The position numbers were made by a program, and so were the translations under genes. The notes beneath the pieces are model-generated. The model had not been told where the DNA came from. It worked only from the letters and a program-made list of their open reading frames with translations, and made no database searches. Shown here in pieces: positions 4,266 through 36,763 of a stretch of DNA of 42,624 bases (positions within the stretch are counted from its first letter, which is position 1; every line of letters begins with the position of its first letter). Source of the stretch: Escherichia phage vB_Eco_Maverick; sequence record NC_073077.1, one strand, 5' to 3'.

Positions 4266-5006
4266 ATGTTGACTAAAAAGGTTAAAAGCGATATCGCCGC
4301 ACATGTCGCGGCATGTCTGCCGGAAGAAGCCTGCGGCCTTGTCGTCATGGTGGGCCGTAAGCAAGTATTCGTCCCGTGCCTTAACGTGTTTGAAGACCCG
4401 ACCGGCGTGCGCTCACGCAAAGACGCTTTCACGATTAGCGATATGGCCTGGATGGATGCCGAGGATATGGGCGACGTCGTGCGAGTAGTCCACTCGCATC
4501 CAGGCCAGCGAGAGCTTACACCCTCACTTGGCGACGTTAACGGATGCAACGGCAGCGGCGTAGTCTGGACCATCACTAACGAATATGGCGACTTTATCGA
4601 GATCGACCCTGAAGACCCGCCGCTGGTAGGCCGCCGATTTGTTCTCGGAATTACAGATTGTTATGGCCTCGTCATGGACTGGCACAAAAAGCAGGGTGTA
4701 AACCTGCCAGACTTCCGCGTGCCGTATAACTGGTGGGAGACAGGCGAAAATCTGTATATGGATAATTGGTACGGTGCTGGCTTCAGGGAATGCGAGGAGA
4801 ATACGCCGGGGGCAATGGTCATCATGCAGATTAGCGCGCCTGTGCCTAACCACGCTGGGATATTCCTTCCGGGCAACCAACTACTACACCATATCTACGG
4901 CAGCCTGTCGAGCGTGATTCCCTTCCGGGCAGGATTTTTCCGCGACAATGTGGTTAAATGGGTACGTCATAAAGACCTACCAGGGAATATCACAGAATGG
5001 CAATGA
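4266..5006 (+). CDS. tail assembly protein K-like (JAB/MPN plus NlpC/P60 domains)
   Basis: JAMM-like motif VHSHPGQRELTPSLGD (H-x-H-x7-S-x2-D) followed by a Cys/His-containing C-terminal half; position after the L-like gene. Confidence 0.75.
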   Translation: MLTKKVKSDIAAHVAACLPEEACGLVVMVGRKQVFVPCLNVFEDPTGVRSRKDAFTISDMAWMDAEDMGDVVRVVHSHPGQRELTPSLGDVNGCNGSGVVWTITNEYGDFIEIDPEDPPLVGRRFVLGITDCYGLVMDWHKKQGVNLPDFRVPYNWWETGENLYMDNWYGAGFRECEENTPGAMVIMQISAPVPNHAGIFLPGNQLLHHIYGSLSSVIPFRAGFFRDNVVKWVRHKDLPGNITEWQ

Positions 5007-5614
5007 CCACGTTTAAATTGTACGGCGTCTTAGGGCGTCGTTTTGGTAAAGTGCATAAGCTGGACTGCTTCACACCGGGAGAAGGCATCACCGGCCTGTG
5101 TGTGAAGTTGCCAGGGTTACAAGACTTTTTAATGTCGGCCCACCTGGACAATATGATGTTCAAGGTGCGCAAAGGCAACCACACGATGACCGGTTATGAT
5201 GAGCTTGGCGAGTTCCACGGCGACCGCGTCGTTACCATCGCGCCGGTTATGACGGGGGCAAAAAGCGGACTGGGCCAATTGCTGGCGGGTGTCGCGATTG
5301 TAGTGGCGTCGTTCTATACTGGCGGACTTGCTACTGCCGCTTTCGGGGCTTCGGCTGCAACCGCTGCCGCTATCGGTACGGCTACATTTTCGTTTGGCAT
5401 GTCGCTTGCGCTGGGCGGTGCTATGCAATTGCTGTCGCCGCAGCCGAAAGGATTGCAGACCCGGCAGGACGTGGATAACAAAGCGTCGTACGCGTTCGGC
5501 GGGCCAGTGAATACAACAGCGCAAGGCACGGCGCTTGGTGTATTATGGGGCGAGCGTGAGATCGGCGGCGCTATTATTTCAGCCGGAATCGTAACCGAGG
5601 ACTTGAACGAATGA
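4997..5614 (+). CDS. tail assembly protein I-like
   Basis: 205 aa; C-terminal half is Gly/Ala-rich and hydrophobic (GLATAAFGASAATAAAIGTATFSFG); located between the K-like and J-like genes. Confidence 0.6.
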   Translation: MAMTTFKLYGVLGRRFGKVHKLDCFTPGEGITGLCVKLPGLQDFLMSAHLDNMMFKVRKGNHTMTGYDELGEFHGDRVVTIAPVMTGAKSGLGQLLAGVAIVVASFYTGGLATAAFGASAATAAAIGTATFSFGMSLALGGAMQLLSPQPKGLQTRQDVDNKASYAFGGPVNTTAQGTALGVLWGEREIGGAIISAGIVTEDLNE

Positions 5615-8600
5615 CGATTATCTACGACGTCACTGGGCATAAAGGCGGCGGCGGCAAACAGCACACCCCGCAGGAAACGCCGGATAGCCTGCATTCCCTG
5701 GCTAAAATTCGCATCTTGCTTGCGCTAGGGGAAGGGGAATTCGAAAGTATTACCAGCGACAGCGAATTACGGCAGCGTGTATATCTGGACGGCACGCCGA
5801 TCCAGAACGCCGACCTGTCGGAAAACTTCCCCGGCGCGCGCGTGGAGTTCCGCCCAGGCACACAGCACCAGGACGTGATCCACGGATTTTCAGCGGTGGA
5901 AAGTGAGCAATCCGTAGGCGTAAAACTGGAAAACGGCACGCCGTGGGTGCGCCAGATTAACGACACCAGTCTTGACGCCGTGCGCATTCGAATCGGCATT
6001 CCGGCCCTGTACACCAACGAAGACAACGGCGACCTGGTGGGCGGGCGCATCGACTATAAGATAGTTGTGTATACGGATAACGCCGACCCGCGTGAGTTCA
6101 GATTCGCCGCCGTTGGTAAAACAATGTCGCTATATGAGCGCGACCACCGCATCGAATTACCTCCGAACGTTAACACCGGCTGGCGCGTGGAGGTGCACCG
6201 CATAACGGCAGACTCCACATCGGCGAAAGTGGTTAATGATATCCGGGTGCAGTCCATCACTGAGATTATTGACGCCCGCCTGCGTTACCCGCTAACCGCG
6301 CTGTTGTTTGTGGAGTTCGACGCCAAAGCGTTCCAGAACATCCCGCGCGTGTCCATTAAGTGCAAAGGTCGCAAAGTTCTAATACCGAACAACTACGACC
6401 CGATCAATCATACCTATTCCGGGGACTGGGACGGCACGTTTAAACGCGCATGGACGGATAACCCTGCGTGGCACTGGTACGATATTTGTATTACTGAGCG
6501 CTTCGGCCTCGGTCGGCGTATCAAACCGCAAATGCTAAACCGATACGCGCTCTACCAGATTGCGCAGCGCTGCGATCAGTTGGTCAGCGACGGCAACGGT
6601 GGTCGAGAAATCCGCTTTAAGAATGATATGTACATTCAGTCACAGACGGATGCCTGGACCGTGCTTAAGGATTTAGCCGCTATCTTTGCCGGTATGACCT
6701 GGTGGGGAAATCAGATGTTGAATATCGTCAGTGACCAGCCGGTCGCAGCGGTATCGCACACCATCACCAACGCCTCGGTCATTGATGGTCGATTCGACTA
6801 CGCGTCCGGCAGCCAGAAAACTCGATATTCCACATTCGCGGTAGCATACGGCAACCCGAAGAACCACTATGAAGATGCCATTGCTACGGGGCAGCGTGTC
6901 GAACTGGTACGCCGCCATAAGATTAACCGTCTGGACATCACGGCGATCGGCTGTACGCGTGAATCTGAAGCGCAACGCCGCGGGCACTGGGCGCTAATCT
7001 CCAACCAGCTTGACCAGCAAGTTAGCTTTAAGGTTGGCATGGAGGGACTTTTCTTTATTCCGGGTAGCGTAGTCGCGATCGCGGATACAAACATTTCTGG
7101 CGGCTTCGAGACTCGCGGCGGTCGCCTGTTGTCGGATCCTGGCACGCGGACGGTGCTGAACACAGACAGCGAAATCACGTTCCGCCCTGGCGATAAATTC
7201 CTGGTACGCACCGATAGCGGTAATGTGGAGACTCGCGAGATCGCCAGCGTCAACGGCAACAAGGTTACGCTAAAAACCGCACTGGATGCCGACCCGATTC
7301 CGGACCAGCCGTTTTGCGTCGATGGCAACGATATCCAGTTGCAGAAGTTCCGCATCACCGACCTGGAATATGACGACTCTACCAGCACTTTTTCAGTGCG
7401 CGGGATTGAGTACAACGATAGTAAATATGATGCCGTTGATAATGGCGCTCGCCTTGATCCGGGCATCTTTACTCAAGTGCCTGACGGCGTAATGAAGGGG
7501 CCGGAGTCCGTGACCATCACCCCGTCGCAGATTTCATCGCAAGGCCAGCTAATCACCAACGTGGATATTGTATTCCCTCCGGTGAAGGACGCCGTGGTGT
7601 ATGAAATCCAGTGGCGGCGTACCAGCTTGCAGAATATGGAAATCCAGTGGGGTAACGACTGGGTTAACATCCCACGTACGGCGTCGAACGGCGCGCACAT
7701 CCCTAACGTGTTCTCAGGTAACTACCAAGCACGCGTCCGCGCAATCGGTATGGGCGAGATTTCATCCCCGTGGGTGTCGTCTGCCATCACGCCGATAGAA
7801 GGTCGTCTCGGCGGGCTTAACGCGCCTATCATCACCAACGCGATTTCTGGCCTCCACCAAATTTTGTGGAAGTGGAACCACAACAACGCCGCGACGGATA
7901 TTTCGTACACCGAGCTTGAAGTGCGCAAGACCGGTGAAACGGAATGGAAATTTCTTACCAACGTCCCATACCCAGGGTCAGATTATGCGCAAACGTCTCT
8001 GGAGTTCGGGATCTATCAGCAGTTGCGCGCCCGTGTAGCGGATAAAATCGGCAACCTATCGGACTGGTCCGCACCGTTTGAAGGCCAGGTGAGTGACAAA
8101 GTTGACGAGTACATGAAGGGGCTTGATGACGAGTTCTTGACTTCCGAGGATGGTAAACACTTCCAGGAAGCTATTAACACGATCCCGCAAGGCATTTATG
8201 AGTCAATGCTCACCGACGCCCAGCAGCTATTCAACGCCCGCGCCGAGTACAAAGGGATTTATGCGGAAATCAAGGTGGCGTATAACGTGGCGGCAGACGC
8301 CAACAAGGCGGTAGCACAACTGGAGACGTTGATCGGCACGCGACTTGAAGACGCCGAAGCGGCGATCCACACGTTGCAGACGGCGCAGAGTACGCAAGAG
8401 CAGGCCTTCGCCCAGTATCAGCAGACTGTTGCCGCTAAGTTTTCGGAACAGGAAGCCGCCATACAGCAGGTACAAACGGCAACTGCAGACGTCGCGGGCG
8501 CACTGGCGGAGTATAAGACCCAGGTCGCGGCACAGTTCGGTCAGCAGTCCGCCGCTATCGAGCAGAAGATGACGTCTTCGTTTAACCACTCCGGTGGTAG

Positions 8601-9429
8601 CGCCACGTACAGCCTTAAGGCGGGCGTGACGTACAACGGGACTTACTACGATGCAGGTATGCAGCTTTCCGTTGTGACGTCGGGCAGCGCTGTTAAATCA
8701 CGCATCGCGTTCAAGGCGGACCAGTTCTACATCATGCACCCGTCTAATGGGTCGCTTTCGTCTGCGTTTATCGTGGATGGCGGGCAGGTGTATATCAACA
8801 CGGCGCGCATTAAAGACGCATCTATCAACTTTGCGCAGATCACGGACACGCTGCAATCCAACAACTGGATTGCAGGGAGCAGGGGTTGGCGTATCGCGAA
8901 AGATGGAGGCGCGGAGTTTAACGCAGTAACGGTACGCGGCAACGTGTATGCGAATGATGGCGTGTTTAATGGTACGGTTTATGCAAGGGATGGGGTATTT
9001 ACCGGAACGGTCGAAGCTACCAGCTTTGTCGGTGACGTTGCAAATATGTGTGTTATTGGTGCGAAAGCAATACCTAACACAGGCAGGAATGGATCGAGGT
9101 CGTGGTCAGTGACTTTCAACGACTCGTCCAGGTCATCAAAACTAAAAGACTTTGTGTTGTTGTTAAGTTACTCACTGGTTGGGTACACCGCAAGCCAGTC
9201 AAGCCGCATTGCTGTTACCGCCAATATTGGTGGGAAAGTAGTCTCAAGGACTATTGAGCGGGCGGCAAGCGGAAACGCAATCCATACGATGATTCCTTTA
9301 GCTGCGAAAGGTGTAACGGCGGGAAGTGTAACAATTACAGTGACGGAAGAGTATACAAACGTCTACGGCAGCACATTGCATCCATCGGTAATATTAATGA
9401 CTCGCGGCACTGGTAGCTGGTCGCAATAA
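5611..9429 (+). CDS. host specificity protein J-like (central tail fibre / tail tip)
   Basis: 1272-aa ORF as last large gene of the tail operon; coiled-coil stretch and beta-rich C-terminal third typical of J-type receptor-binding proteins; translationally coupled to the I-like gene. Confidence 0.85.
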   Translation: MTIIYDVTGHKGGGGKQHTPQETPDSLHSLAKIRILLALGEGEFESITSDSELRQRVYLDGTPIQNADLSENFPGARVEFRPGTQHQDVIHGFSAVESEQSVGVKLENGTPWVRQINDTSLDAVRIRIGIPALYTNEDNGDLVGGRIDYKIVVYTDNADPREFRFAAVGKTMSLYERDHRIELPPNVNTGWRVEVHRITADSTSAKVVNDIRVQSITEIIDARLRYPLTALLFVEFDAKAFQNIPRVSIKCKGRKVLIPNNYDPINHTYSGDWDGTFKRAWTDNPAWHWYDICITERFGLGRRIKPQMLNRYALYQIAQRCDQLVSDGNGGREIRFKNDMYIQSQTDAWTVLKDLAAIFAGMTWWGNQMLNIVSDQPVAAVSHTITNASVIDGRFDYASGSQKTRYSTFAVAYGNPKNHYEDAIATGQRVELVRRHKINRLDITAIGCTRESEAQRRGHWALISNQLDQQVSFKVGMEGLFFIPGSVVAIADTNISGGFETRGGRLLSDPGTRTVLNTDSEITFRPGDKFLVRTDSGNVETREIASVNGNKVTLKTALDADPIPDQPFCVDGNDIQLQKFRITDLEYDDSTSTFSVRGIEYNDSKYDAVDNGARLDPGIFTQVPDGVMKGPESVTITPSQISSQGQLITNVDIVFPPVKDAVVYEIQWRRTSLQNMEIQWGNDWVNIPRTASNGAHIPNVFSGNYQARVRAIGMGEISSPWVSSAITPIEGRLGGLNAPIITNAISGLHQILWKWNHNNAATDISYTELEVRKTGETEWKFLTNVPYPGSDYAQTSLEFGIYQQLRARVADKIGNLSDWSAPFEGQVSDKVDEYMKGLDDEFLTSEDGKHFQEAINTIPQGIYESMLTDAQQLFNARAEYKGIYAEIKVAYNVAADANKAVAQLETLIGTRLEDAEAAIHTLQTAQSTQEQAFAQYQQTVAAKFSEQEAAIQQVQTATADVAGALAEYKTQVAAQFGQQSAAIEQKMTSSFNHSGGSATYSLKAGVTYNGTYYDAGMQLSVVTSGSAVKSRIAFKADQFYIMHPSNGSLSSAFIVDGGQVYINTARIKDASINFAQITDTLQSNNWIAGSRGWRIAKDGGAEFNAVTVRGNVYANDGVFNGTVYARDGVFTGTVEATSFVGDVANMCVIGAKAIPNTGRNGSRSWSVTFNDSSRSSKLKDFVLLLSYSLVGYTASQSSRIAVTANIGGKVVSRTIERAASGNAIHTMIPLAAKGVTAGSVTITVTEEYTNVYGSTLHPSVILMTRGTGSWSQ

Positions 9430-9435
9430 GCAAAT

Positions 9436-9462
9436 AGCCCCTCGCTGGAGGGGCTATCTTTT
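9436..9462 (+). terminator. rho-independent terminator after the J-like gene
   Basis: agcccctc-gctg-gaggggct perfect 8-bp stem followed by atctttt. Confidence 0.75.
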
Positions 9463-9703
9463 AATAATCAATGACGCAGTTTGATGGGGAGCCAATCCTG
9501 CGGTGTTCGTGGCTAATCTCCTGACACCACTGACCGGTATAGGGTAGCTTTTCGGTATCGTAAACCAAAGACCCGTCTTCATGTCGCTCAATAGGCTTAG
9601 GTATTACGCCGGAATTCGGAACGCCGGTGTCTAAGCCGTTGCCACATGCTGCCATTAGAAGGCACGCCGCTGGTATTATCAGATTTTTGATTAAAGTTTT
9701 CAT
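9461..9703 (-). CDS. small lipoprotein, Cor/Llp-like superinfection-exclusion candidate
   Basis: 80-aa product MKTLIKNLIIPAACLLMAACGNG with signal peptide and lipobox LMAAC; GGAG Shine-Dalgarno 8 nt upstream of the ATG at 9703; sits head-to-head next to the receptor-binding J gene. Confidence 0.6.
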   Translation of the reverse strand: MKTLIKNLIIPAACLLMAACGNGLDTGVPNSGVIPKPIERHEDGSLVYDTEKLPYTGQWCQEISHEHRRIGSPSNCVIDY

Positions 9704-9783
9704 GGTATCATCTCCGGTATTGGGTTGAGTTTTAGTATTACACCGCTCAATCAAGAATGCAACCAATTTATGAGGATTCAGCT

Positions 9784-10272
9784 ATGGCAGCGGGCACACT
9801 ATCCGTAACGAATAACAGCAAGGCGGTTGTCGGAGTAGGCACAACGTTTACCGCGTTTAAAGCTGGCGACTTCTTAACGCTGGTGGTAGGGCAAGTCCCC
9901 TACACCGTGGCAATCGCGTCCATTGAAAGCGCAACCGAGCTTACGCTGGTGCTGCCGTTCGACGGCCCAACGGCAACCGGCCTTGCGTGGGATGGCGTTA
10001 AGCGCGATACCATGTCGCTGGCAACGATGGGCGTTACCGTACAGGCCCAAAAAGCATTGCGCTTGATGATTGCAGATGAAAACAACTGGCGTGCAATCTT
10101 CGGCGACGCTGAAGAAATCACAGTGACGTTACCTACCGGGCAAGTTATGCAGGGTATGTCGTGGGGCTACCTGTCGCAGCTAATGAAGCAGATTCGCCCC
10201 GTTGAAATCGCGGAATTAAAAGCTGCCGTTGAGGAGTTGAAAGCCGCGGTCGCGGCACTGACAAAAGCATAA
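9784..10272 (+). CDS. hypothetical tail-associated protein (N-terminal domain paralogous to 2879-3478)
   Basis: GAGGA Shine-Dalgarno before ATG 9784; N-terminus GTLSVTNNSKAVVGVGTTF resembles 2879 ORF; C-terminal coiled-coil (EIAELKAAVEELKAAVAAL); followed by terminator. Confidence 0.5.
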   Translation: MAAGTLSVTNNSKAVVGVGTTFTAFKAGDFLTLVVGQVPYTVAIASIESATELTLVLPFDGPTATGLAWDGVKRDTMSLATMGVTVQAQKALRLMIADENNWRAIFGDAEEITVTLPTGQVMQGMSWGYLSQLMKQIRPVEIAELKAAVEELKAAVAALTKA

Positions 10273-10277
10273 TGAGA

Positions 10278-10299
10278 AGGGGCCAAACGGCCCCTTTTT
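10278..10299. terminator. bidirectional rho-independent terminator
   Basis: aggggcc-aaac-ggcccct stem followed by ttttt, between convergent genes 9784-10272 (+) and 10300-10875 (-). Confidence 0.7.
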
Positions 10300-10875
10300 C
10301 TAGTTTGAGTTTTCCCAGTCCATTTTGCGCCGCACCAGCGGGCTTTCGTAATATTCCTTGCCCTCAACTTCCACTAATGGCCAGTCATTAACAATCACGT
10401 ACGGCTCCGCGATATCTTCAATAACGCCGTGCGCGCTTTGTGGCCCTAACGACACACCCACCAGGATAACACCGGCAACGCGACGGGTAAGATACTCGCG
10501 AGCGCAACGCGCCTCTACCAGTCCGCGACGGATGCCGCTGGTGGCCTTAATTTCGTAGGTCCATACGGCATCGACCACATGCTCGCGGAAGTCGGGACCG
10601 GACTTTACCTTGCGCTTGCCGACCATGATAATATCGCCGCGGTCAATGGTATTGGCGCTAAACAGGCCGGTACGCATAAGCAAACCTTGCGGGATGCAAC
10701 TACGCCCGCCCGCCTGCCCTTCAAGGTACATGCCTGCAAACATTTCGCCAAGCACACCGACCAGTCGGCTTTGCTTGCACGCGTCAGACTTTAAGCGCCA
10801 CTGATCAAACTCGATGCTTGCTATCATTGCCGCCAGGTGGAATTGTTTACCGGATATTTCATATTCGCCGTACAT
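10300..10875 (-). CDS. hypothetical protein, possible PD-(D/E)xK-type nuclease
   Basis: 191-aa ORF; segment GDIIMVGKRK...VDAVWTYEIKA fits a D...E-x-K nuclease signature; assignment tentative. Confidence 0.45.
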   Translation of the reverse strand: MYGEYEISGKQFHLAAMIASIEFDQWRLKSDACKQSRLVGVLGEMFAGMYLEGQAGGRSCIPQGLLMRTGLFSANTIDRGDIIMVGKRKVKSGPDFREHVVDAVWTYEIKATSGIRRGLVEARCAREYLTRRVAGVILVGVSLGPQSAHGVIEDIAEPYVIVNDWPLVEVEGKEYYESPLVRRKMDWENSN

Positions 10876-11502: not shown

Positions 11503-11973
11503 CTATTGGTTGCAAGTGAATTTTGCAACGTTTATTGCGTAAATTTTCGGGACCAAATCGCTACACGCCCGACGAATTGCCGCGATGTTCTTCTCGCAAT
11601 CTTCAATGATGACCAGTTCCGACACGTCTGCATAGCAGACCATCTTGAACACGGCACACGCTTTAAACTCTGGCGGCGGGGTGTCATCCAGCATGTGGCG
11701 CATAAACAACCGGCCTGTCGGGAATACTTCCAGTTGCTCGGCGGTAGTCTCCCAACATTCGCGCTGCCGGTTAGTCAGATACGCTATCTCGAAGCCTTGC
11801 TCTTTGTACATGCGCAGCAGCGGCAGCATATCCATGTTCAGGTCTTCGCGTACGTGCGCTTTGTGCCACTTTGCCCAAAAGGTTGATTTCGTTTTTATCC
11901 CCGGCACCAGGTCGGCACGCGCATCGCTTGAGCCATTAATAACGCCATCCAAATCGCAAATCAGTAATTTCAT
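11503..11973 (-). CDS. HAD-superfamily phosphatase-like protein
   Basis: N-terminal MKLLICDLDGVI matches HAD motif I (DxDG); downstream Thr and acidic motifs present; 156 aa. Confidence 0.6.
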   Translation of the reverse strand: MKLLICDLDGVINGSSDARADLVPGIKTKSTFWAKWHKAHVREDLNMDMLPLLRMYKEQGFEIAYLTNRQRECWETTAEQLEVFPTGRLFMRHMLDDTPPPEFKACAVFKMVCYADVSELVIIEDCEKNIAAIRRACSDLVPKIYAINVAKFTCNQ

Positions 11974-13370: not shown

Positions 13371-13398
13371 ATTAAAAAGGGCGTCCAAACCGGACACC
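13371..13398 (-). terminator. minus-strand rho-independent terminator overlapping the downstream promoter
   Basis: On the minus strand gggtgtcc-ggttt-ggacgccc (one G-U pair) followed by ttttt; lies between the -10 box at 13402-13407 and the RBS of gene 13112-13354. Confidence 0.5.
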
Positions 13399-13401
13399 CT
13401 C

Positions 13402-13430
13402 AATATAATGCAACCAATCTAATTATGCAA
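13402..13430 (-). promoter_or_regulatory. sigma70-like promoter TTGCAT-N17-TATATT embedded in tandem ATTGGTTGCAT motifs
   Basis: Minus-strand reading aTTGGTTGCATaattagaTTGGTTGCATTATATT; -35 and -10 hexamers separated by 17 nt. Confidence 0.4.
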
Positions 13431-13435
13431 CCAAT

Positions 13436-13753
13436 TTACGAATAAAAATTTGGGTCGCGTGCAACGTCTACCAGATACAGATTGCTGATTCGGTTGCCGT
13501 AGTGCCCTGGGGTGCGCTGGCGGCACACAACGGCGAAGCCTGGAGGGATTGTATTGCCCGTCGCAATAATCCACGCCACGCGTGCGCCAGACAGCGTCTT
13601 GCCGTTGCATTCGATACGGGTTCCGCCATCGGCGGTGTTGATGTTGCCAATCTTGCATCCGGTGGACTTCAGACGGATGACTCCGGTTTTGCTGTCGTAG
13701 GTGAATAGCTGGTTAGTCATTGCGACCGAAAAATCAATGGCTTCGAATGTCAT
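13436..13753 (-). CDS. hypothetical protein, possibly a degenerate HNH/homing-endonuclease-like DNA-binding protein
   Basis: 105 aa, Gly/Cys-containing beta-rich sequence (GCKIGNINTADGGTRIECNGK...HYGNRISNLYL); weak resemblance only. Confidence 0.35.
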   Translation of the reverse strand: MTFEAIDFSVAMTNQLFTYDSKTGVIRLKSTGCKIGNINTADGGTRIECNGKTLSGARVAWIIATGNTIPPGFAVVCRQRTPGHYGNRISNLYLVDVARDPNFYS

Positions 13754-22812: not shown

Positions 22813-23048
22813 GTATATCTCCGATTGGTTAAGTTTAGGTGTCGGCAGTTAACTTCGTCGGTGGCCTTAACATATTGCCAGGTTGCGCGTTCTCCCGTTC
22901 GGGTAGTGGACCTGGTTATATAATCACGGTTGGGAATCCTGACACTTCGATCCGGCCCCTGCGTTGCCCCTCTCCAGTTTGCGTCCTGCATCCTGTCGAC
23001 GGAGTGAATGATAGATTGGTTGCAGGATGGGTGTCAACAACTAATTTC

Positions 23049-26128: not shown

Positions 26129-26295
26129 GAGACTGAATAAAATCCGGGGATTGCAAAATACACGGCAGCATGATGCGAAGTGCGGTCGTCGATGAACTAG
26201 GCAACCAATGCGGGTTGTATTATGCTGAGTGAAAAATGCAGTTTTCAGCCACAGCTGATATCGATCAACTTTTTCATGCGCGTGATTAATATTGG

Positions 26296-26324
26296 TTGCA
26301 TTCACCCCAGCACCCTGCTATATT
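26296..26324 (+). promoter_or_regulatory. sigma70-like promoter TTGCAT-N17-TATATT inside ATTGGTTGCA motifs
   Basis: TTGCAT 26296-26301, 17-nt spacer, TATATT 26319-26324, about 28 nt upstream of ATG 26353. Confidence 0.4.
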
Positions 26325-26352
26325 GGTTGCACACCAACATGAGGACTGAACA

Positions 26353-26811: not shown

Positions 26812-27093
26812 ATGGGCCGTAGACGAGCAAAACAGCTTTCGTGGCATATTCCCCTGCATTGCATACGAATATGGGCTAAGAATGCGGTTGAGGGCGAATC
26901 GGTATTCTGGTGCTATCGCGACGATGTGAAGCCGTTGACGCAGACTCGCTACTTGCACCAGTTCGCAGCACAACACGATTTCAGGGTGCGGACTTCCTTG
27001 CAACCAATGGGGATTCGTATTACATTACGCCGGAAGCCCGCCGTTGAGCGGGTAGGCAAACACTGGAGACTGAGCAAATGCAAAGAGCGCTAA
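26812..27093 (+). CDS. hypothetical protein
   Basis: 93-aa ORF starting MGRRRAKQL (longest frame begins at GTG 26803); basic, Trp/Cys-containing. Confidence 0.35.
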   Translation: MGRRRAKQLSWHIPLHCIRIWAKNAVEGESVFWCYRDDVKPLTQTRYLHQFAAQHDFRVRTSLQPMGIRITLRRKPAVERVGKHWRLSKCKER

Positions 27094-34407: not shown

Positions 34408-35494
34408 TCAACATTTGGCGGATCGAATGATTCGCCGTCACATCTTCACCCAGCGCCTGAGCAATGATCAGGCGCGGAGGGTGCTGGCTATGTGGGAGAA
34501 GTTCCGGCCCACTTTACTTGGTAAGCTGACCGAGTTACTTGATGGCAAAAAGTCCATGAGCAACAAGGCACTTACCACACTGTTAACCCAAATCGACAAG
34601 ACCGTCAAAACGGAACTGCGCGCCGAGTTTAAAGTGCTGGCGGAGAGCCTTCAGGAGTTCGCCGACACCGAGGCTGATTATCTCGCGGACACACTAACGG
34701 CAGCGATCCAGCCCGCTGTCGCTGTACCAGCGGTTGAGGTGGTGGGTGTAGTTACGGGCGCGCAGATTGCAGCGACTGCAATGAAAAACCCGTTCCAGGG
34801 AAACACCATGATGCAATGGCCTGATTCACTTTCCGAGTGGACTAGGACGCAGATCGGCAATCAGGTGCGCGCTGGATTCATCCAGGGCAAGCCGACGATG
34901 GAAATTATCGCGGATGTGAGGCGCGCGCTAGGCGGTCGTAGTGCGCAAGCAATCTCAAGCGTTGTTAAGTCCGCGGTCAACCACTATGCGGCGACCGCCC
35001 GCGAATTAATGGTAAAAGCTAATGACGATATTCTCGAAGGTCGCCAATGGTTGGCTACATTGGACACGCATACTTCTCCCATGTGCCAGCTACGCGATCG
35101 CCTGTTTTATCCGGTTGATGTTACCCCCGACACCAAAGGAAAGCGCGGCGGGAAAGTGGTGGCGGGGTCACAATATGGCGCTGGTCCGGGCAAGCTGCAT
35201 TATTGCTGCCGTTCGACGGAGACGTGGAAAGTCAAAGGTATGGAAGATTGGCCCAGTGGTAAGCGTCCGGCACTGAAGGCTGACGCAGGCAGATTGCTGA
35301 GTGAGCAGGTCGACGCGCAGACTGATTTCTTCTCATGGGTGCAGCGCCAGCCGCGCCATATTCTGGAGGAATTATATGGGGTGCAGCGCGCCGATCAGAT
35401 TATGCGCGGCGTGAAAGTGCCGAAGATGTTCACCGATACTGGCGAACTAATGACTATTGCACAGCTTAAAAACCGGGGGTTATGGCGTGATTAA
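34391..35494 (+). CDS. minor head protein (Mu F / SPP1 gp7-like head morphogenesis protein)
   Basis: 367 aa following the portal; conserved-looking segment WLATLDTHTSPMCQLRDRLFYPVD as in head morphogenesis proteins. Confidence 0.7.
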   Translation: MAKTINQHLADRMIRRHIFTQRLSNDQARRVLAMWEKFRPTLLGKLTELLDGKKSMSNKALTTLLTQIDKTVKTELRAEFKVLAESLQEFADTEADYLADTLTAAIQPAVAVPAVEVVGVVTGAQIAATAMKNPFQGNTMMQWPDSLSEWTRTQIGNQVRAGFIQGKPTMEIIADVRRALGGRSAQAISSVVKSAVNHYAATARELMVKANDDILEGRQWLATLDTHTSPMCQLRDRLFYPVDVTPDTKGKRGGKVVAGSQYGAGPGKLHYCCRSTETWKVKGMEDWPSGKRPALKADAGRLLSEQVDAQTDFFSWVQRQPRHILEELYGVQRADQIMRGVKVPKMFTDTGELMTIAQLKNRGLWRD

Positions 35495-35816
35495 GTATGC
35501 AGCGATTGGGCTGGTTATCGGTCTGGTGGTAGGATTCTGGCTAGGTGACTCCTATCGCGCTGGCGTAGTGGCGGGGGCGGCGCAAGAAGCGCAAGCAGAA
35601 GCCCAACGGCAGCAAACTAAAGTTATTGAGCGCTCCGTGCAGGCCGAACAAGCCCGCGACGTAGAATACCGGACTATCACGAAAGAGGTTGTTAAATATG
35701 TTACGCGCCCTAACCGCCCTGATTGTAGTTTTGATGCTGAGCGCGTGCGGATCAAGCAACGTGCCGTTGATGCCGCTAACGGAGTCGGCACTGCGACCGC
35801 CGTGCAAGTTCGATAA
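35457..35816 (+). CDS. i-spanin (Rz-like) candidate
   Basis: N-terminal transmembrane helix (AAIGLVIGLVVGFWLG) followed by a charged coiled coil; contains an embedded out-of-frame lipoprotein ORF; true start may be an internal GTG. Confidence 0.5.
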   Translation: MHSLKTGGYGVIKYAAIGLVIGLVVGFWLGDSYRAGVVAGAAQEAQAEAQRQQTKVIERSVQAEQARDVEYRTITKEVVKYVTRPNRPDCSFDAERVRIKQRAVDAANGVGTATAVQVR

Positions 35817-35928
35817 CCCGTCCGCGGACCCCGACGAAGATTTGATGATTGACGTGAAAAATATGGAATGCGGCGCGAAGCTAAGGGCGCAAGTGCTGGA
35901 TTTGCAGAAAATAATTCGGGGGCTGTGA
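35689..35928 (+). CDS. o-spanin (Rz1-like outer-membrane lipoprotein) candidate
   Basis: Signal peptide plus lipobox LMLSAC, Pro-rich mature part, embedded in the +1 frame of the i-spanin candidate. Confidence 0.55.
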   Translation: MLNMLRALTALIVVLMLSACGSSNVPLMPLTESALRPPCKFDNPSADPDEDLMIDVKNMECGAKLRAQVLDLQKIIRGL

Positions 35929-36710: not shown

Positions 36711-36734
36711 GCGTCCTCGTTGTTGGTGTGCAAC

Positions 36735-36763
36735 CAATATATGCAACCAATACGCGGATTGCA
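36735..36763 (-). promoter_or_regulatory. sigma70-like promoter TTGCAA-N17-TATATT for the moron gene
   Basis: Palindromic TTGCAA at 36758-36763 and minus-strand TATATT at plus 36735-36740; followed by leader ggttgcacaccaaca shared with the 26353 gene. Confidence 0.4.

What the first reader, a model, noticed from the sequence alone, without database searches (positions are those of the whole stretch)
9461..9703. Small lipoprotein encoded head-to-head beside the receptor-binding J gene
An 80-aa protein with a classic lipobox (LMAAC) is encoded on the opposite strand right after the J-like gene and has an ATTGGTTGCAT-containing promoter. In T5 (llp) and T1/phi80-like phages (cor), small lipoproteins at this position inactivate the phage's own outer-membrane receptor and give superinfection exclusion.
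Basis: partly seen in the sequence, partly recalled or inferred. Interest (0 to 1): 0.6.

Follow-up and report, generated by a model that had tools for sequence, protein, structure and literature searches.

The report
LamB-linked phage superinfection-exclusion lipoprotein
This is a real 80-aa exported lipoprotein gene next to the tail-tip (J) gene of coliphage CS16; a 51%-identical relative has been shown to block infection by LamB-dependent phages including lambda, so it is an ordinary, poorly annotated member of a known kind of phage self-exclusion gene.

Summary
The window is Escherichia phage vB_Eco_CS16, a Dhillonvirus (100% identity). The ORF at 9461-9703 (-) is real. It has a GGAG ribosome-binding site, a lipoprotein signal peptide ending LMAA|C20, pN/pS of 0.08-0.18, and 28 invariant positions across homologues.

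It is not head-to-head with J. It converges on J across a shared terminator hairpin and diverges from a truncated lateral tail-fibre gene. ATTGGTTGCAT is a recurrent element (11 sites against 0.79 expected) that carries a TTGCAT -35.

The protein is not Cor, Llp or Rtp45; only the signal peptides align. It belongs to PHROG 12984, as does mEp010 gp116 (Lpp010). Lpp010 expressed from a plasmid excludes the LamB-dependent phages mEp010, mEp044, mEp554 and lambda.

All four LamB-dependent BASEL Queuovirinae carry a homologue, and the three LptD-dependent ones do not. The C-terminal domain of CS16 J is 67-70% identical to three of those LamB phages. FhuA-type Dhillonviruses carry cor at the same slot.

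Best reading: an outer-membrane lipoprotein that makes infected cells and their debris refractory to LamB-dependent phages. How it does so is unknown. It is a new member of a known kind, of modest interest.

The parts
9461..9703 (-). Lipoprotein CDS, 80 aa including the stop codon at 9461-9463. The mature protein is 61 aa starting at Cys20.
   Evidence: ORF and translation are. PHROG 12984 'lipoprotein' matches at E 6e-41. pN/pS is 0.08-0.18. The GenBank record annotates only 64 aa from Met17 and so loses the signal peptide.
9647..9703 (-). Signal peptide, aa 1-19 (MKTLIKNLIIPAACLLMAA). The lipidated Cys20 codon is at 9644-9646 and residue +2 is Gly.
   Evidence: The pattern match is and Cys20 is invariant in 17 of 17 homologues. 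By the E. coli '+2 rule' (established knowledge), Gly at +2 predicts sorting to the outer membrane. This is an inference.
9464..9619 (-). Conserved mature core, aa 29-80: PNSGVIP, then a variable stretch at aa 36-48, then TEKLP.TGQWC60 ... RIGSPSNC76 ... Y80.
   Evidence: There are 28 invariant columns, and Cys60 and Cys76 are invariant in all 17 aligned homologues. One unaligned singleton hit (P0015) has Arg at Cys60. A Cys60-Cys76 disulfide is inferred.
9712..9715 (-). Shine-Dalgarno GGAG, 8 nt upstream of the ATG.
   Evidence: Read directly from the sequence.
9734..9767 (-). Putative promoter. The ATTGGTTGCAT motif is at 9757-9767 and contains TTGCAT as a -35 (9757-9762). A 17-nt spacer follows, then TGT (9740-9742) and AATACT as a -10 (9734-9739).
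   Evidence: The motif occurs 11 times against 0.79 expected. The same TTGCAT-N17-TATATT geometry is seen at 13425 and 26291. The region is 91.5% identical in the cor-type phage SSL-2009a. The consensus scan did not call it.
9434..9457 (.). G+C-rich hairpin between the two convergent stop codons. It is a likely bidirectional terminator for J and the lipoprotein gene.
   Evidence: One search shows 10 pairs with a T-run on the + strand. The record annotates terminators here. The T-run on the minus strand is weaker (TTTGCTTATT).
8867..9429 (+). C-terminal receptor-binding part of J (whole gene 5611-9429, 1272 aa). This is the left part of the swapped host-range module.
   Evidence: DNA homology to the cor-type Dhillonvirus SSL-2009a stops at 8866 and resumes at 9690. 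The last 176 aa are 67-70% identical to the J proteins of LamB-dependent Bas21, Bas23 and Bas24, and 36-38% identical to those of Bas22 and mEp010.
9784..10272 (+). Divergently transcribed lateral tail-fibre gene remnant (162 aa). It is context, not part of the exclusion unit.
   Evidence: It matches PHROG 1980 positions 4-159 of 449. It has a deletion of about 1.17-1.19 kb relative to EP23 and SSL-2009a. The record flags it as a pseudogene.

Best explanation
The gene encodes a small secreted lipoprotein that protects the infected cell from phages using the same receptor.

Inferred steps, from sequence rules:
- The protein is exported by Sec.
- It is lipidated at Cys20 and cleaved by signal peptidase II.
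- Because residue +2 is Gly, Lol sorts it to the inner leaflet of the outer membrane.

Inferred function: it makes the cell, and the envelope debris left after lysis, refractory to phages that use the maltoporin LamB. LamB is the receptor predicted for CS16's own J tip.

The gene is a self-contained unit: its own promoter, a ribosome-binding site, the coding sequence and a terminator. It is read against the late tail operon. Its promoter motif is shared with the leftward and rightward non-structural operons, so it is probably expressed early by host RNA polymerase.

Together with the J C-terminal domain it forms an 823-bp exchangeable host-range module (8867-9689). In FhuA-type Dhillonviruses the same slot holds two small receptor-binding genes plus cor.

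Shown experimentally, for a homologue only: expression alone excludes LamB-dependent phages, including unrelated lambda.

Inferred mechanism: the conserved C-terminal half, probably disulfide-bonded between Cys60 and Cys76, binds LamB from the periplasmic side and changes or locks the extracellular loops the phage tip needs. This is by analogy with Llp on FhuA and Rtp45 on LptD.
For: Identity of the window: CS16, 100%.

The gene is real:
- Ribosome-binding site, signal peptide and lipobox are present.
- pN/pS is 0.08-0.18.
- 28 columns are invariant across the aligned homologues.

Family:
- PHROG 12984 matches the CS16 protein at E 6e-41.
- The same PHROG matches mEp010 gp116 at 1e-26 and the E. 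coli Nissle prophage homologue at 1e-56.

Experiment on a homologue:
- mEp010_116 is gp116, also called Lpp010.
- Expressed from Ptac, it excluded mEp010, mEp044, mEp554 and lambda.
- All of these need lamB (PMC11893012).

Link to the receptor:
- BASEL phages Bas21, Bas22, Bas23 and Bas24 are LamB-dependent (S5 Table of PMC8594841), and all four carry a homologue at 69-75% identity.
- The LptD-dependent Bas19, Bas20 and Bas25 are absent from the 42 hits.
- The OmpA-dependent mEp021 and mEp515 carry a different lipoprotein type.

Synteny: the gene is convergent with J in 8 of 8 loci inspected, namely CS16, EP23, HH3, PNS1, KurtStettler, mEp010, a Salmonella arizonae contig and the Nissle prophage.

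J C-terminus: 67-70% identical to Bas21, Bas23 and Bas24.

Module swap against the cor-type phage SSL-2009a: the junctions are at 8866 and 9690, the right one inside the signal-peptide codons.

The concept is established for this locus in small siphoviruses.
Against: - There is no experiment on the CS16 protein, and the tested homologue is only 51% identical overall. Identity is about 75% (24 of 32 positions) over the last 32 residues.
- LamB dependence of CS16 is inferred from J similarity, not measured.
- Even for Lpp010 only plaque and spot exclusion was shown. Binding to LamB and loss of adsorption were not tested.
- The LamB-dependent phage mEp013 escapes Lpp010.
- E. coli Nissle carries a homologue, yet lambda was reported to bind its LamB. 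Whether the gene is expressed there is unknown.
- The AlphaFold model is poor (pLDDT 63), so there is no structural support.
- The promoter fails a consensus scan.
- Lipobox position -3 is Met.
Confidence: 0.75

Rival explanations
1. The lipoprotein blocks a step after receptor binding rather than masking or re-shaping LamB. The step could be tail-tip opening, outer-membrane penetration or periplasmic DNA transit. The lipoprotein Ltp of Streptococcus phage TP-J34 acts on the tape-measure protein in this way (from my own knowledge).
For: Only plaque exclusion was measured for Lpp010. Lambda still binds to LamB of E. coli Nissle and is inactivated by it, although that strain carries a homologue in its lambdoid prophage. 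The LamB-dependent phage mEp013 escapes.
Against: Lpp010 excludes lambda, whose J C-terminal domain was left out of an alignment with LamB-type Drexlerviridae-related J proteins for lack of homology. In CS16 the lipoprotein gene is exchanged together with the J receptor-binding domain while the rest of the tail module stays in place. The lipoprotein is found with LamB-type J C-termini in four unrelated phage groups. Expression of the Nissle copy is unknown.
Confidence: 0.15
2. It is a Cor- or Llp-type protein that inactivates FhuA, as in T1, phi80 and T5. This is the specific analogy the first reader used.
For: The size, the lipoprotein signal and the position beside the host-range genes all match. 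Other Dhillonviruses do carry cor at exactly this slot, with the same promoter and the same first five codons.
Against: Cor falls in PHROG 1119 and the CS16 protein in PHROG 12984, with no cross-hit. hhalign aligns only signal-peptide and lipobox residues 11-33. A profile search of PDB at E up to 10 returned neither Llp nor any other phage lipoprotein. Every homologue whose phage has a known receptor belongs to a LamB-dependent phage.
Confidence: 0.03
3. It is a lysis protein: an Rz1-like outer-membrane spanin lipoprotein.
For: It is a small outer-membrane lipoprotein encoded by a phage.
Against: It lies about 19 kb from the lysin gene (record 34992-35483). It is not embedded in or next to an Rz gene and has no spanin PHROG hit. 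A different ORF, 35698-35928 (+), carries the Rz-like spanin signature at E 6e-26.
Confidence: 0.02
4. It is a periplasmic accessory factor for the phage's own J tip, for example an assembly or maturation helper, or a moron with a host-directed role unrelated to phage exclusion, such as modulating maltodextrin uptake.
For: It is tightly co-inherited with the J C-terminal domain. It also occurs in prophages.
Against: Tail assembly is cytoplasmic, whereas this protein is exported. It is transcribed against the tail operon. Expression of the homologue alone is sufficient for exclusion.
Confidence: 0.04

Closest known systems
Lpp010 (gp116, 'type-C lipoprotein') of temperate coliphage mEp010 (PMC11893012)
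   Same: It is in the same PHROG (12984), at 51% identity. The motifs PNSGVIP, TEKLPYTGQWC and RRIGSPSNC are the same and both conserved Cys are present. The position is the same, convergent with J across a terminator. Its phage is LamB-dependent.
   Different: It comes from a temperate, non-lambdoid siphovirus, whereas CS16 is a virulent Dhillonvirus. The stretch after the lipid Cys differs (CAVDKEAALHNL against CGNGLDTGV), as does the variable segment at aa 36-48. The promoter region is unrelated. The function of Lpp010 has been tested; that of the CS16 protein has not.
Cor of phi80, N15, HK022, T1 and cor-type Dhillonviruses (PHROG 1119)
   Same: It is a lipoprotein of about 70-80 aa. In Dhillonviruses it sits in exactly the same slot, with the same promoter and the same first five codons, MKTLI. 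It is an exclusion factor matched to the phage's own receptor.
   Different: The mature sequences show no detectable similarity. Cor is linked to FhuA and to separate receptor-binding genes downstream of J, whereas here the receptor-binding domain is fused to J.
Llp of phage T5
   Same: The mature lipoprotein is about 61 aa and the gene is next to the receptor-binding protein gene. It acts from the periplasmic face of the outer membrane to prevent receptor use (PMC9586334, as quoted). It also protects progeny from debris.
   Different: There is no sequence relationship. Its target FhuA has a plug domain that transmits the allosteric change, and LamB has no plug, so the mechanism cannot be identical.
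Rtp45 and SE_Oeko (Pfam PF24052, PHROG 4281), the LptD-directed exclusion lipoproteins of Rtp and the Dhillonvirus Oekolampad
   Same: The locus type is the same in small siphoviruses, including Dhillonvirus. The size is similar and there is an internal disulfide. Rtp45 displaces an extracellular loop by steric insertion rather than allostery, which is a plausible model for a plug-less barrel.
   Different: Only the signal peptide aligns and there is no PF24052 hit. The receptor is different.

Membership tests
PHROG 12984 / 'type-C Lpp' (Lpp010) family | Significant full-length match to the family profile | tested here: met
   E 6.2e-41 over residues 7-80 against profile positions 4-77 of 77. 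Lpp010 and the Nissle homologue hit the same PHROG.
PHROG 12984 / 'type-C Lpp' (Lpp010) family | Conserved mature-domain motifs and two internal cysteines | tested here: met
   PNSGV.P, TEKLP.TGQWC, RIGSPSNC and the terminal Y are invariant in 17 sequences.
PHROG 12984 / 'type-C Lpp' (Lpp010) family | The gene lies immediately downstream of, and convergent with, a J gene carrying a LamB-type C-terminal domain | tested here: met
   This holds in 8 of 8 loci inspected.
PHROG 12984 / 'type-C Lpp' (Lpp010) family | Expression excludes LamB-dependent phages | not testable with these tools
   This was shown only for Lpp010 (PMC11893012).
Bacterial lipoprotein (Lgt/LspA substrate) | Positively charged n-region, hydrophobic h-region and a lipobox ending in Cys within the first 35 residues or so | tested here: met
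   The protein matches the PROSITE-like pattern and the Cys is invariant. Position -3 is Met rather than L/V/I, so the strict [LVI][ASTVI][GAS]C form is not met in CS16, although most homologues have it.
Bacterial lipoprotein (Lgt/LspA substrate) | Actual lipidation, globomycin-sensitive processing and outer-membrane location | not testable with these tools
   The only indication is the sequence rule that Gly at +2 is not an inner-membrane retention signal.
Cor (PHROG 1119) | Profile or pairwise similarity of the mature protein | tested here: not met
   There is no PHROG 1119 hit at E up to 0.01. hhalign covers only residues 11-33, which are signal peptide and lipobox.
Cor (PHROG 1119) | Association with FhuA-dependent phages | tested here: not met
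   Homologues occur in LamB-dependent phages. cor-type Dhillonviruses have a different module at the same slot.
Llp (T5) | Sequence similarity to Llp | tested here: not met
   A profile search of all PDB chains at E up to 10 gave three unrelated hits and no phage lipoprotein of any kind. I did not check independently that an Llp chain is in that copy of the library.
Llp (T5) | Similar fold | tested here: inconclusive
   The AF2 model has pLDDT 63 and pTM 0.37. Foldseek against PDB gave nothing below E = 7.
Rtp45-like phage lipoprotein (Pfam PF24052) | Match to PF24052 or PHROG 4281 | tested here: not met
   There is no Pfam hit at E up to 0.1, whereas Rtp45 scores 1.3e-37. hhalign aligns only residues 1-26.
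Rz1-type o-spanin | Located in the lysis cassette or embedded in Rz, with a spanin profile match | tested here: not met
   The lysin gene is about 19 kb away and there is no spanin PHROG hit. A separate ORF at 35698-35928 carries the spanin signature.

The most novel reading that the evidence does not exclude
This narrow family would be a distinct structural solution for disabling a plug-less trimeric porin, LamB, from inside the cell. It has only about 3 clusters at 50% identity among 1.84 billion proteins. Because lambda is reported still to bind LamB of E. coli Nissle, which carries a homologue, the protein may act after binding rather than by preventing adsorption. The Nissle copy may also be the unidentified prophage factor behind that probiotic strain's complete resistance to lambda.
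Probability: 0.2. Interest if true: 0.6.

Novelty: new member of a known kind. Interest (0 to 1): 0.3.

Why it matters
- **Annotation.** The CS16 record starts the CDS at Met17 and loses the signal peptide. EP23 and PNS1 do not annotate the gene at all, and most other records call it hypothetical. The correct reading adds a receptor-specific marker: presence of this lipoprotein together with the matching J C-terminus predicts LamB use from sequence alone.
- **Phage cocktails.** Cells infected by such a phage, or lysogenic for one, are expected to become refractory to other LamB-dependent phages, including lambda.
- **Mechanism.** Structures exist for exclusion lipoproteins acting on FhuA and on LptD. 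How a 61-aa lipoprotein disables LamB is not known, and this compact, highly conserved family is a good candidate for a third structure.

Tried and rejected
- Pfam, NCBIfam and PADLOC gave nothing usable for the lipoprotein. The only NCBIfam hit was to the LptM signal/mature model at 14.5 bits against a cut-off of 27.7. It covers residues 1-22, so it reflects signal-peptide resemblance only, and I rejected it.
- A profile search of PDB sequences gave only chance hits.
- AlphaFold2 with the 15-sequence alignment gave a low-confidence model (pLDDT 63, pTM 0.37). Foldseek against PDB found nothing. I drew no structural conclusion and did not spend further fold searches on this model.
- The exhaustive HMM search of 1.84 billion representatives added only one new full-length relative, plus one frameshifted copy and two spurious repeat proteins. 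A deeper alignment was therefore not obtainable.
- The consensus sigma-70 scan did not find the upstream promoter.
- The longer TTG-initiated 101-aa ORF (9461-9766) was rejected. It has no ribosome-binding site, and every homologue starts at the MK... position.
- The overlapping 45-aa ORF at 9454-9591 was ignored as an alternative-frame artefact.
- Literature searches for CS16 itself and for a LamB/exclusion-lipoprotein structure found nothing beyond the mEp paper.

Full report
**Origin of the window.** The region 8800-10400 is 100% identical to Escherichia phage vB_Eco_CS16 (LR999870.1, genus Dhillonvirus). The surrounding genes are the lambda-like tail-tip module. These are an L-like gene, a K-like gene, an I-like gene at 4997-5614, and a 1272-aa J-like central fibre at 5611-9429. 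J carries Pfam FNIII-A_GpJ, Phage-tail_3 and Phage_Tail_Tip domains and matches PHROG 31.

**The observation.** On the minus strand an ORF runs from an ATG at 9701-9703 to a stop at 9461-9463. It encodes MKTLIKNLIIPAACLLMAACGNGLDTGVPNSGVIPKPIERHEDGSLVYDTEKLPYTGQWCQEISHEHRRIGSPSNCVIDY.
- GGAG lies 8 nt upstream of the ATG.
- The N-terminus has two lysines, a 12-residue hydrophobic stretch, and M-A-A-C20.
- A PROSITE-like lipoprotein pattern matched only 6 of 1571 start-stop combinations of at least 40 aa in the window. Two of those six are nested starts of one ORF, which turned out to be the phage's Rz-like spanin.
- Met at lipobox position -3 is unusual. Most homologues have L-[TS]-[AG]-C, and the Cys is invariant.

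**The gene is real.** Against the three closest Dhillonvirus copies (EP23, HH3, PNS1) there are 13-18 nucleotide differences but only 3-4 amino-acid differences, giving pN/pS of 0.08-0.15. Against KurtStettler and mEp010, synonymous sites are saturated (pS 0.89-0.92) while pN is 0.13-0.26. The GenBank record starts the CDS at Met17 (64 aa), which removes the signal peptide. EP23 and PNS1 do not annotate the gene at all.

**Geometry.** The title's "head-to-head beside J" is wrong.
- J ends at 9429 and the lipoprotein gene ends at 9461.
- A 10-bp-stem G+C-rich hairpin at 9434-9457 lies between them (the record also annotates terminators here).
- The two genes therefore converge.
- The divergent neighbour is the lateral tail-fibre gene at 9784-10272.
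- In CS16 that gene is a 162-aa remnant with an internal deletion of about 1.2 kb relative to EP23 and SSL-2009a.

**The promoter claim.** A consensus sigma-70 scan found nothing upstream of the gene.
- It has 11 sites (up to 1 mismatch) against 0.79 expected, and 0 of 100 shuffles reach that.
- At least seven of the 11 sites sit closely upstream of a start codon or operon start: 9757, 13408/13425, 26291/26322 and 36728/36741. I did not check the gene context of the other four.
- At 13425 and 26291 its TTGCAT lies 17 nt upstream of TATATT.
- At 9757 it lies 17 nt upstream of AATACT, which is preceded by TGT.

I read this as a family of host-polymerase promoters, with the lipoprotein gene as a monocistronic unit of promoter, RBS, CDS and terminator. 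Sharing the motif with the non-structural operons suggests early expression. That is an inference.

**What the protein is not.**
- Pfam, NCBIfam and PADLOC give nothing usable.
- Cor from the Dhillonvirus SSL-2009a falls in PHROG 1119. Rtp45 falls in PHROG 4281 and Pfam PF24052. The CS16 protein hits neither.
- Profile comparison with Cor and with Rtp45 aligns only the signal peptide and lipobox.
- A profile search of all PDB sequences at E up to 10 returned no phage lipoprotein.

**What the protein is.**
- It matches PHROG 12984 ("lipoprotein", no function assigned) at 6e-41.
- tblastn finds it in 42 phage records:
  - four Dhillonviruses, at 95-100% identity;
  - many Queuovirinae, at 69-75% (9g, Seurat, CAjan, GottfriedDienst, KurtStettler, WildeMaa, SeppeHuegi);
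  - a few Salmonella, Cronobacter and Enterobacter phages;
  - the temperate phages mEp010, mEp013, mEp044 and mEp554, at about 51%.
- The family is very narrow: 16 clusters among 5.8 billion proteins, and three real 50%-identity clusters among 1.84 billion representatives.
- The C-terminal half is almost invariant, including Cys60 and Cys76.

**Functional evidence from relatives.**
- The mEp010 hit is locus mEp010_116. This is gp116, also called Lpp010, which Negrete-Mendez et al. cloned under Ptac.
- Its expression excluded mEp010, mEp044, mEp554 and lambda, but not mEp013. All of these phages fail on a lamB knockout.
- The OmpA-dependent phages mEp021 and mEp515 carry a different lipoprotein type, which excludes only them (PMC11893012).
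- In the BASEL collection, Bas21, Bas22, Bas23 and Bas24 are listed as LamB-dependent, and all four carry the homologue.
- The LptD-dependent Queuovirinae Bas19, Bas20 and Bas25 are not among the hits.
- The gene lies convergent with J in all eight loci I inspected, including a Salmonella arizonae contig and an E. coli Nissle 1917 prophage.

**The module.**
- Compared with the cor-type Dhillonvirus SSL-2009a, DNA homology stops at 8866 inside J and resumes at 9690. That point is codon 5 of the lipoprotein gene. Both proteins begin MKTLI, and they share the promoter.
- In SSL-2009a this interval holds the end of J, two small genes and cor. In CS16 it holds a J C-terminal extension and this lipoprotein gene.
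- A solved Dhillonvirus-type J structure (PDB 23gd_D, 1148 aa) matches CS16 J up to about residue 1120 and then ends.
- The last 176 aa of CS16 J are 67-70% identical to the J proteins of Bas21, Bas23 and Bas24, and 36-38% identical to those of Bas22 and mEp010.
- Independent work assigns LamB specificity to such GpJ C-terminal domains.
- I therefore predict that CS16 uses LamB, and that receptor-binding domain and exclusion gene travel together as an 823-bp cassette.

**Mechanism.**
- Shown: exclusion by a homologue.
- Inferred from sequence rules: export, lipidation, and outer-membrane sorting (Gly at +2).
- Inferred by analogy with Llp on FhuA and Rtp45 on LptD: binding to LamB from the periplasmic side, preventing productive engagement by the J tip. 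LamB has no plug, so a steric, Rtp45-like displacement of loops is more plausible than Llp-like allostery.
- Two observations keep a post-binding block open. mEp013 escapes Lpp010. Lambda reportedly still binds LamB of E. coli Nissle, which carries a 77-aa homologue in its lambdoid prophage. Whether that copy is expressed is unknown.
- Structure prediction did not help (pLDDT 63).

**Verdict.** The family and receptor are different from those named, and the orientation was mis-stated. Because a homologue has been tested and the locus logic is already described for small siphoviruses, this is a new, poorly annotated member of a known kind. What remains open is how LamB is disabled, and whether the Nissle copy contributes to that strain's lambda resistance.

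Noticed in passing
window 9757-9767, 11505-11515, 13408-13435, 23015-23025, 26199-26332, 26998-27008, 36728-36751: ATTGGTTGCAT recurs 11 times (up to 1 mismatch) against 0.79 expected. It is often in tandem or inverted pairs just upstream of operon starts. The geometry TTGCAT-N17-TATATT is seen, and the variant TATATTGGTTGCACACCAAC contains an inverted repeat. It is probably a family of phage early promoters or operators.
   Followed up: partly
window 9784-10272: The lateral tail-fibre gene is reduced to 162 aa by an internal deletion of about 1.17-1.19 kb relative to EP23 (542 aa) and SSL-2009a (538 aa). CS16 probably lacks functional side fibres, like laboratory lambda.
   Followed up: partly
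window 35698-35928 (+): A second ORF with a canonical lipoprotein signal (MLRALTALIVVLMLSAC...) matches Rz-like spanin PHROGs 5672 and 1267. It lies about 6.4 kb from the lysin gene, and the GenBank record does not annotate it as a spanin.
   Followed up: partly
L011 6956-7189 (E. coli Nissle 1917 NZ_CP022686.1 430269-430502): A 77-aa homologue (WP_021567253.1, 'hypothetical protein') lies convergent with the J gene of a lambdoid prophage of about 43 kb between yecD and yecN. 31 of 5426 complete E. coli genomes have a match. Published work on Nissle's lambda resistance left an unidentified prophage factor besides the repressor.
   Followed up: partly
window 9461-9703; LR999870.1 15644-15838: The deposited annotation starts the CDS at Met17 (64 aa), which removes the signal peptide. 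EP23 and PNS1 leave the gene unannotated.
   Followed up: yes
window 9690-9703 and L004 1501-1514: The right-hand recombination junction of the host-range cassette falls inside the signal-peptide codons. Cor and this unrelated lipoprotein therefore share the promoter, the RBS and the first five residues, MKTLI.
   Followed up: yes
window 13354-13112 (-) and upstream 13380-13440: Downstream of the tandem motif and its TATATT, a hairpin with a T-run (GGGTGTCCGGTTTGGACGCCCTTTTT) precedes the RBS of an 80-aa membrane-protein gene. This could be a leader terminator or attenuator in the early leftward operon.
   Followed up: no
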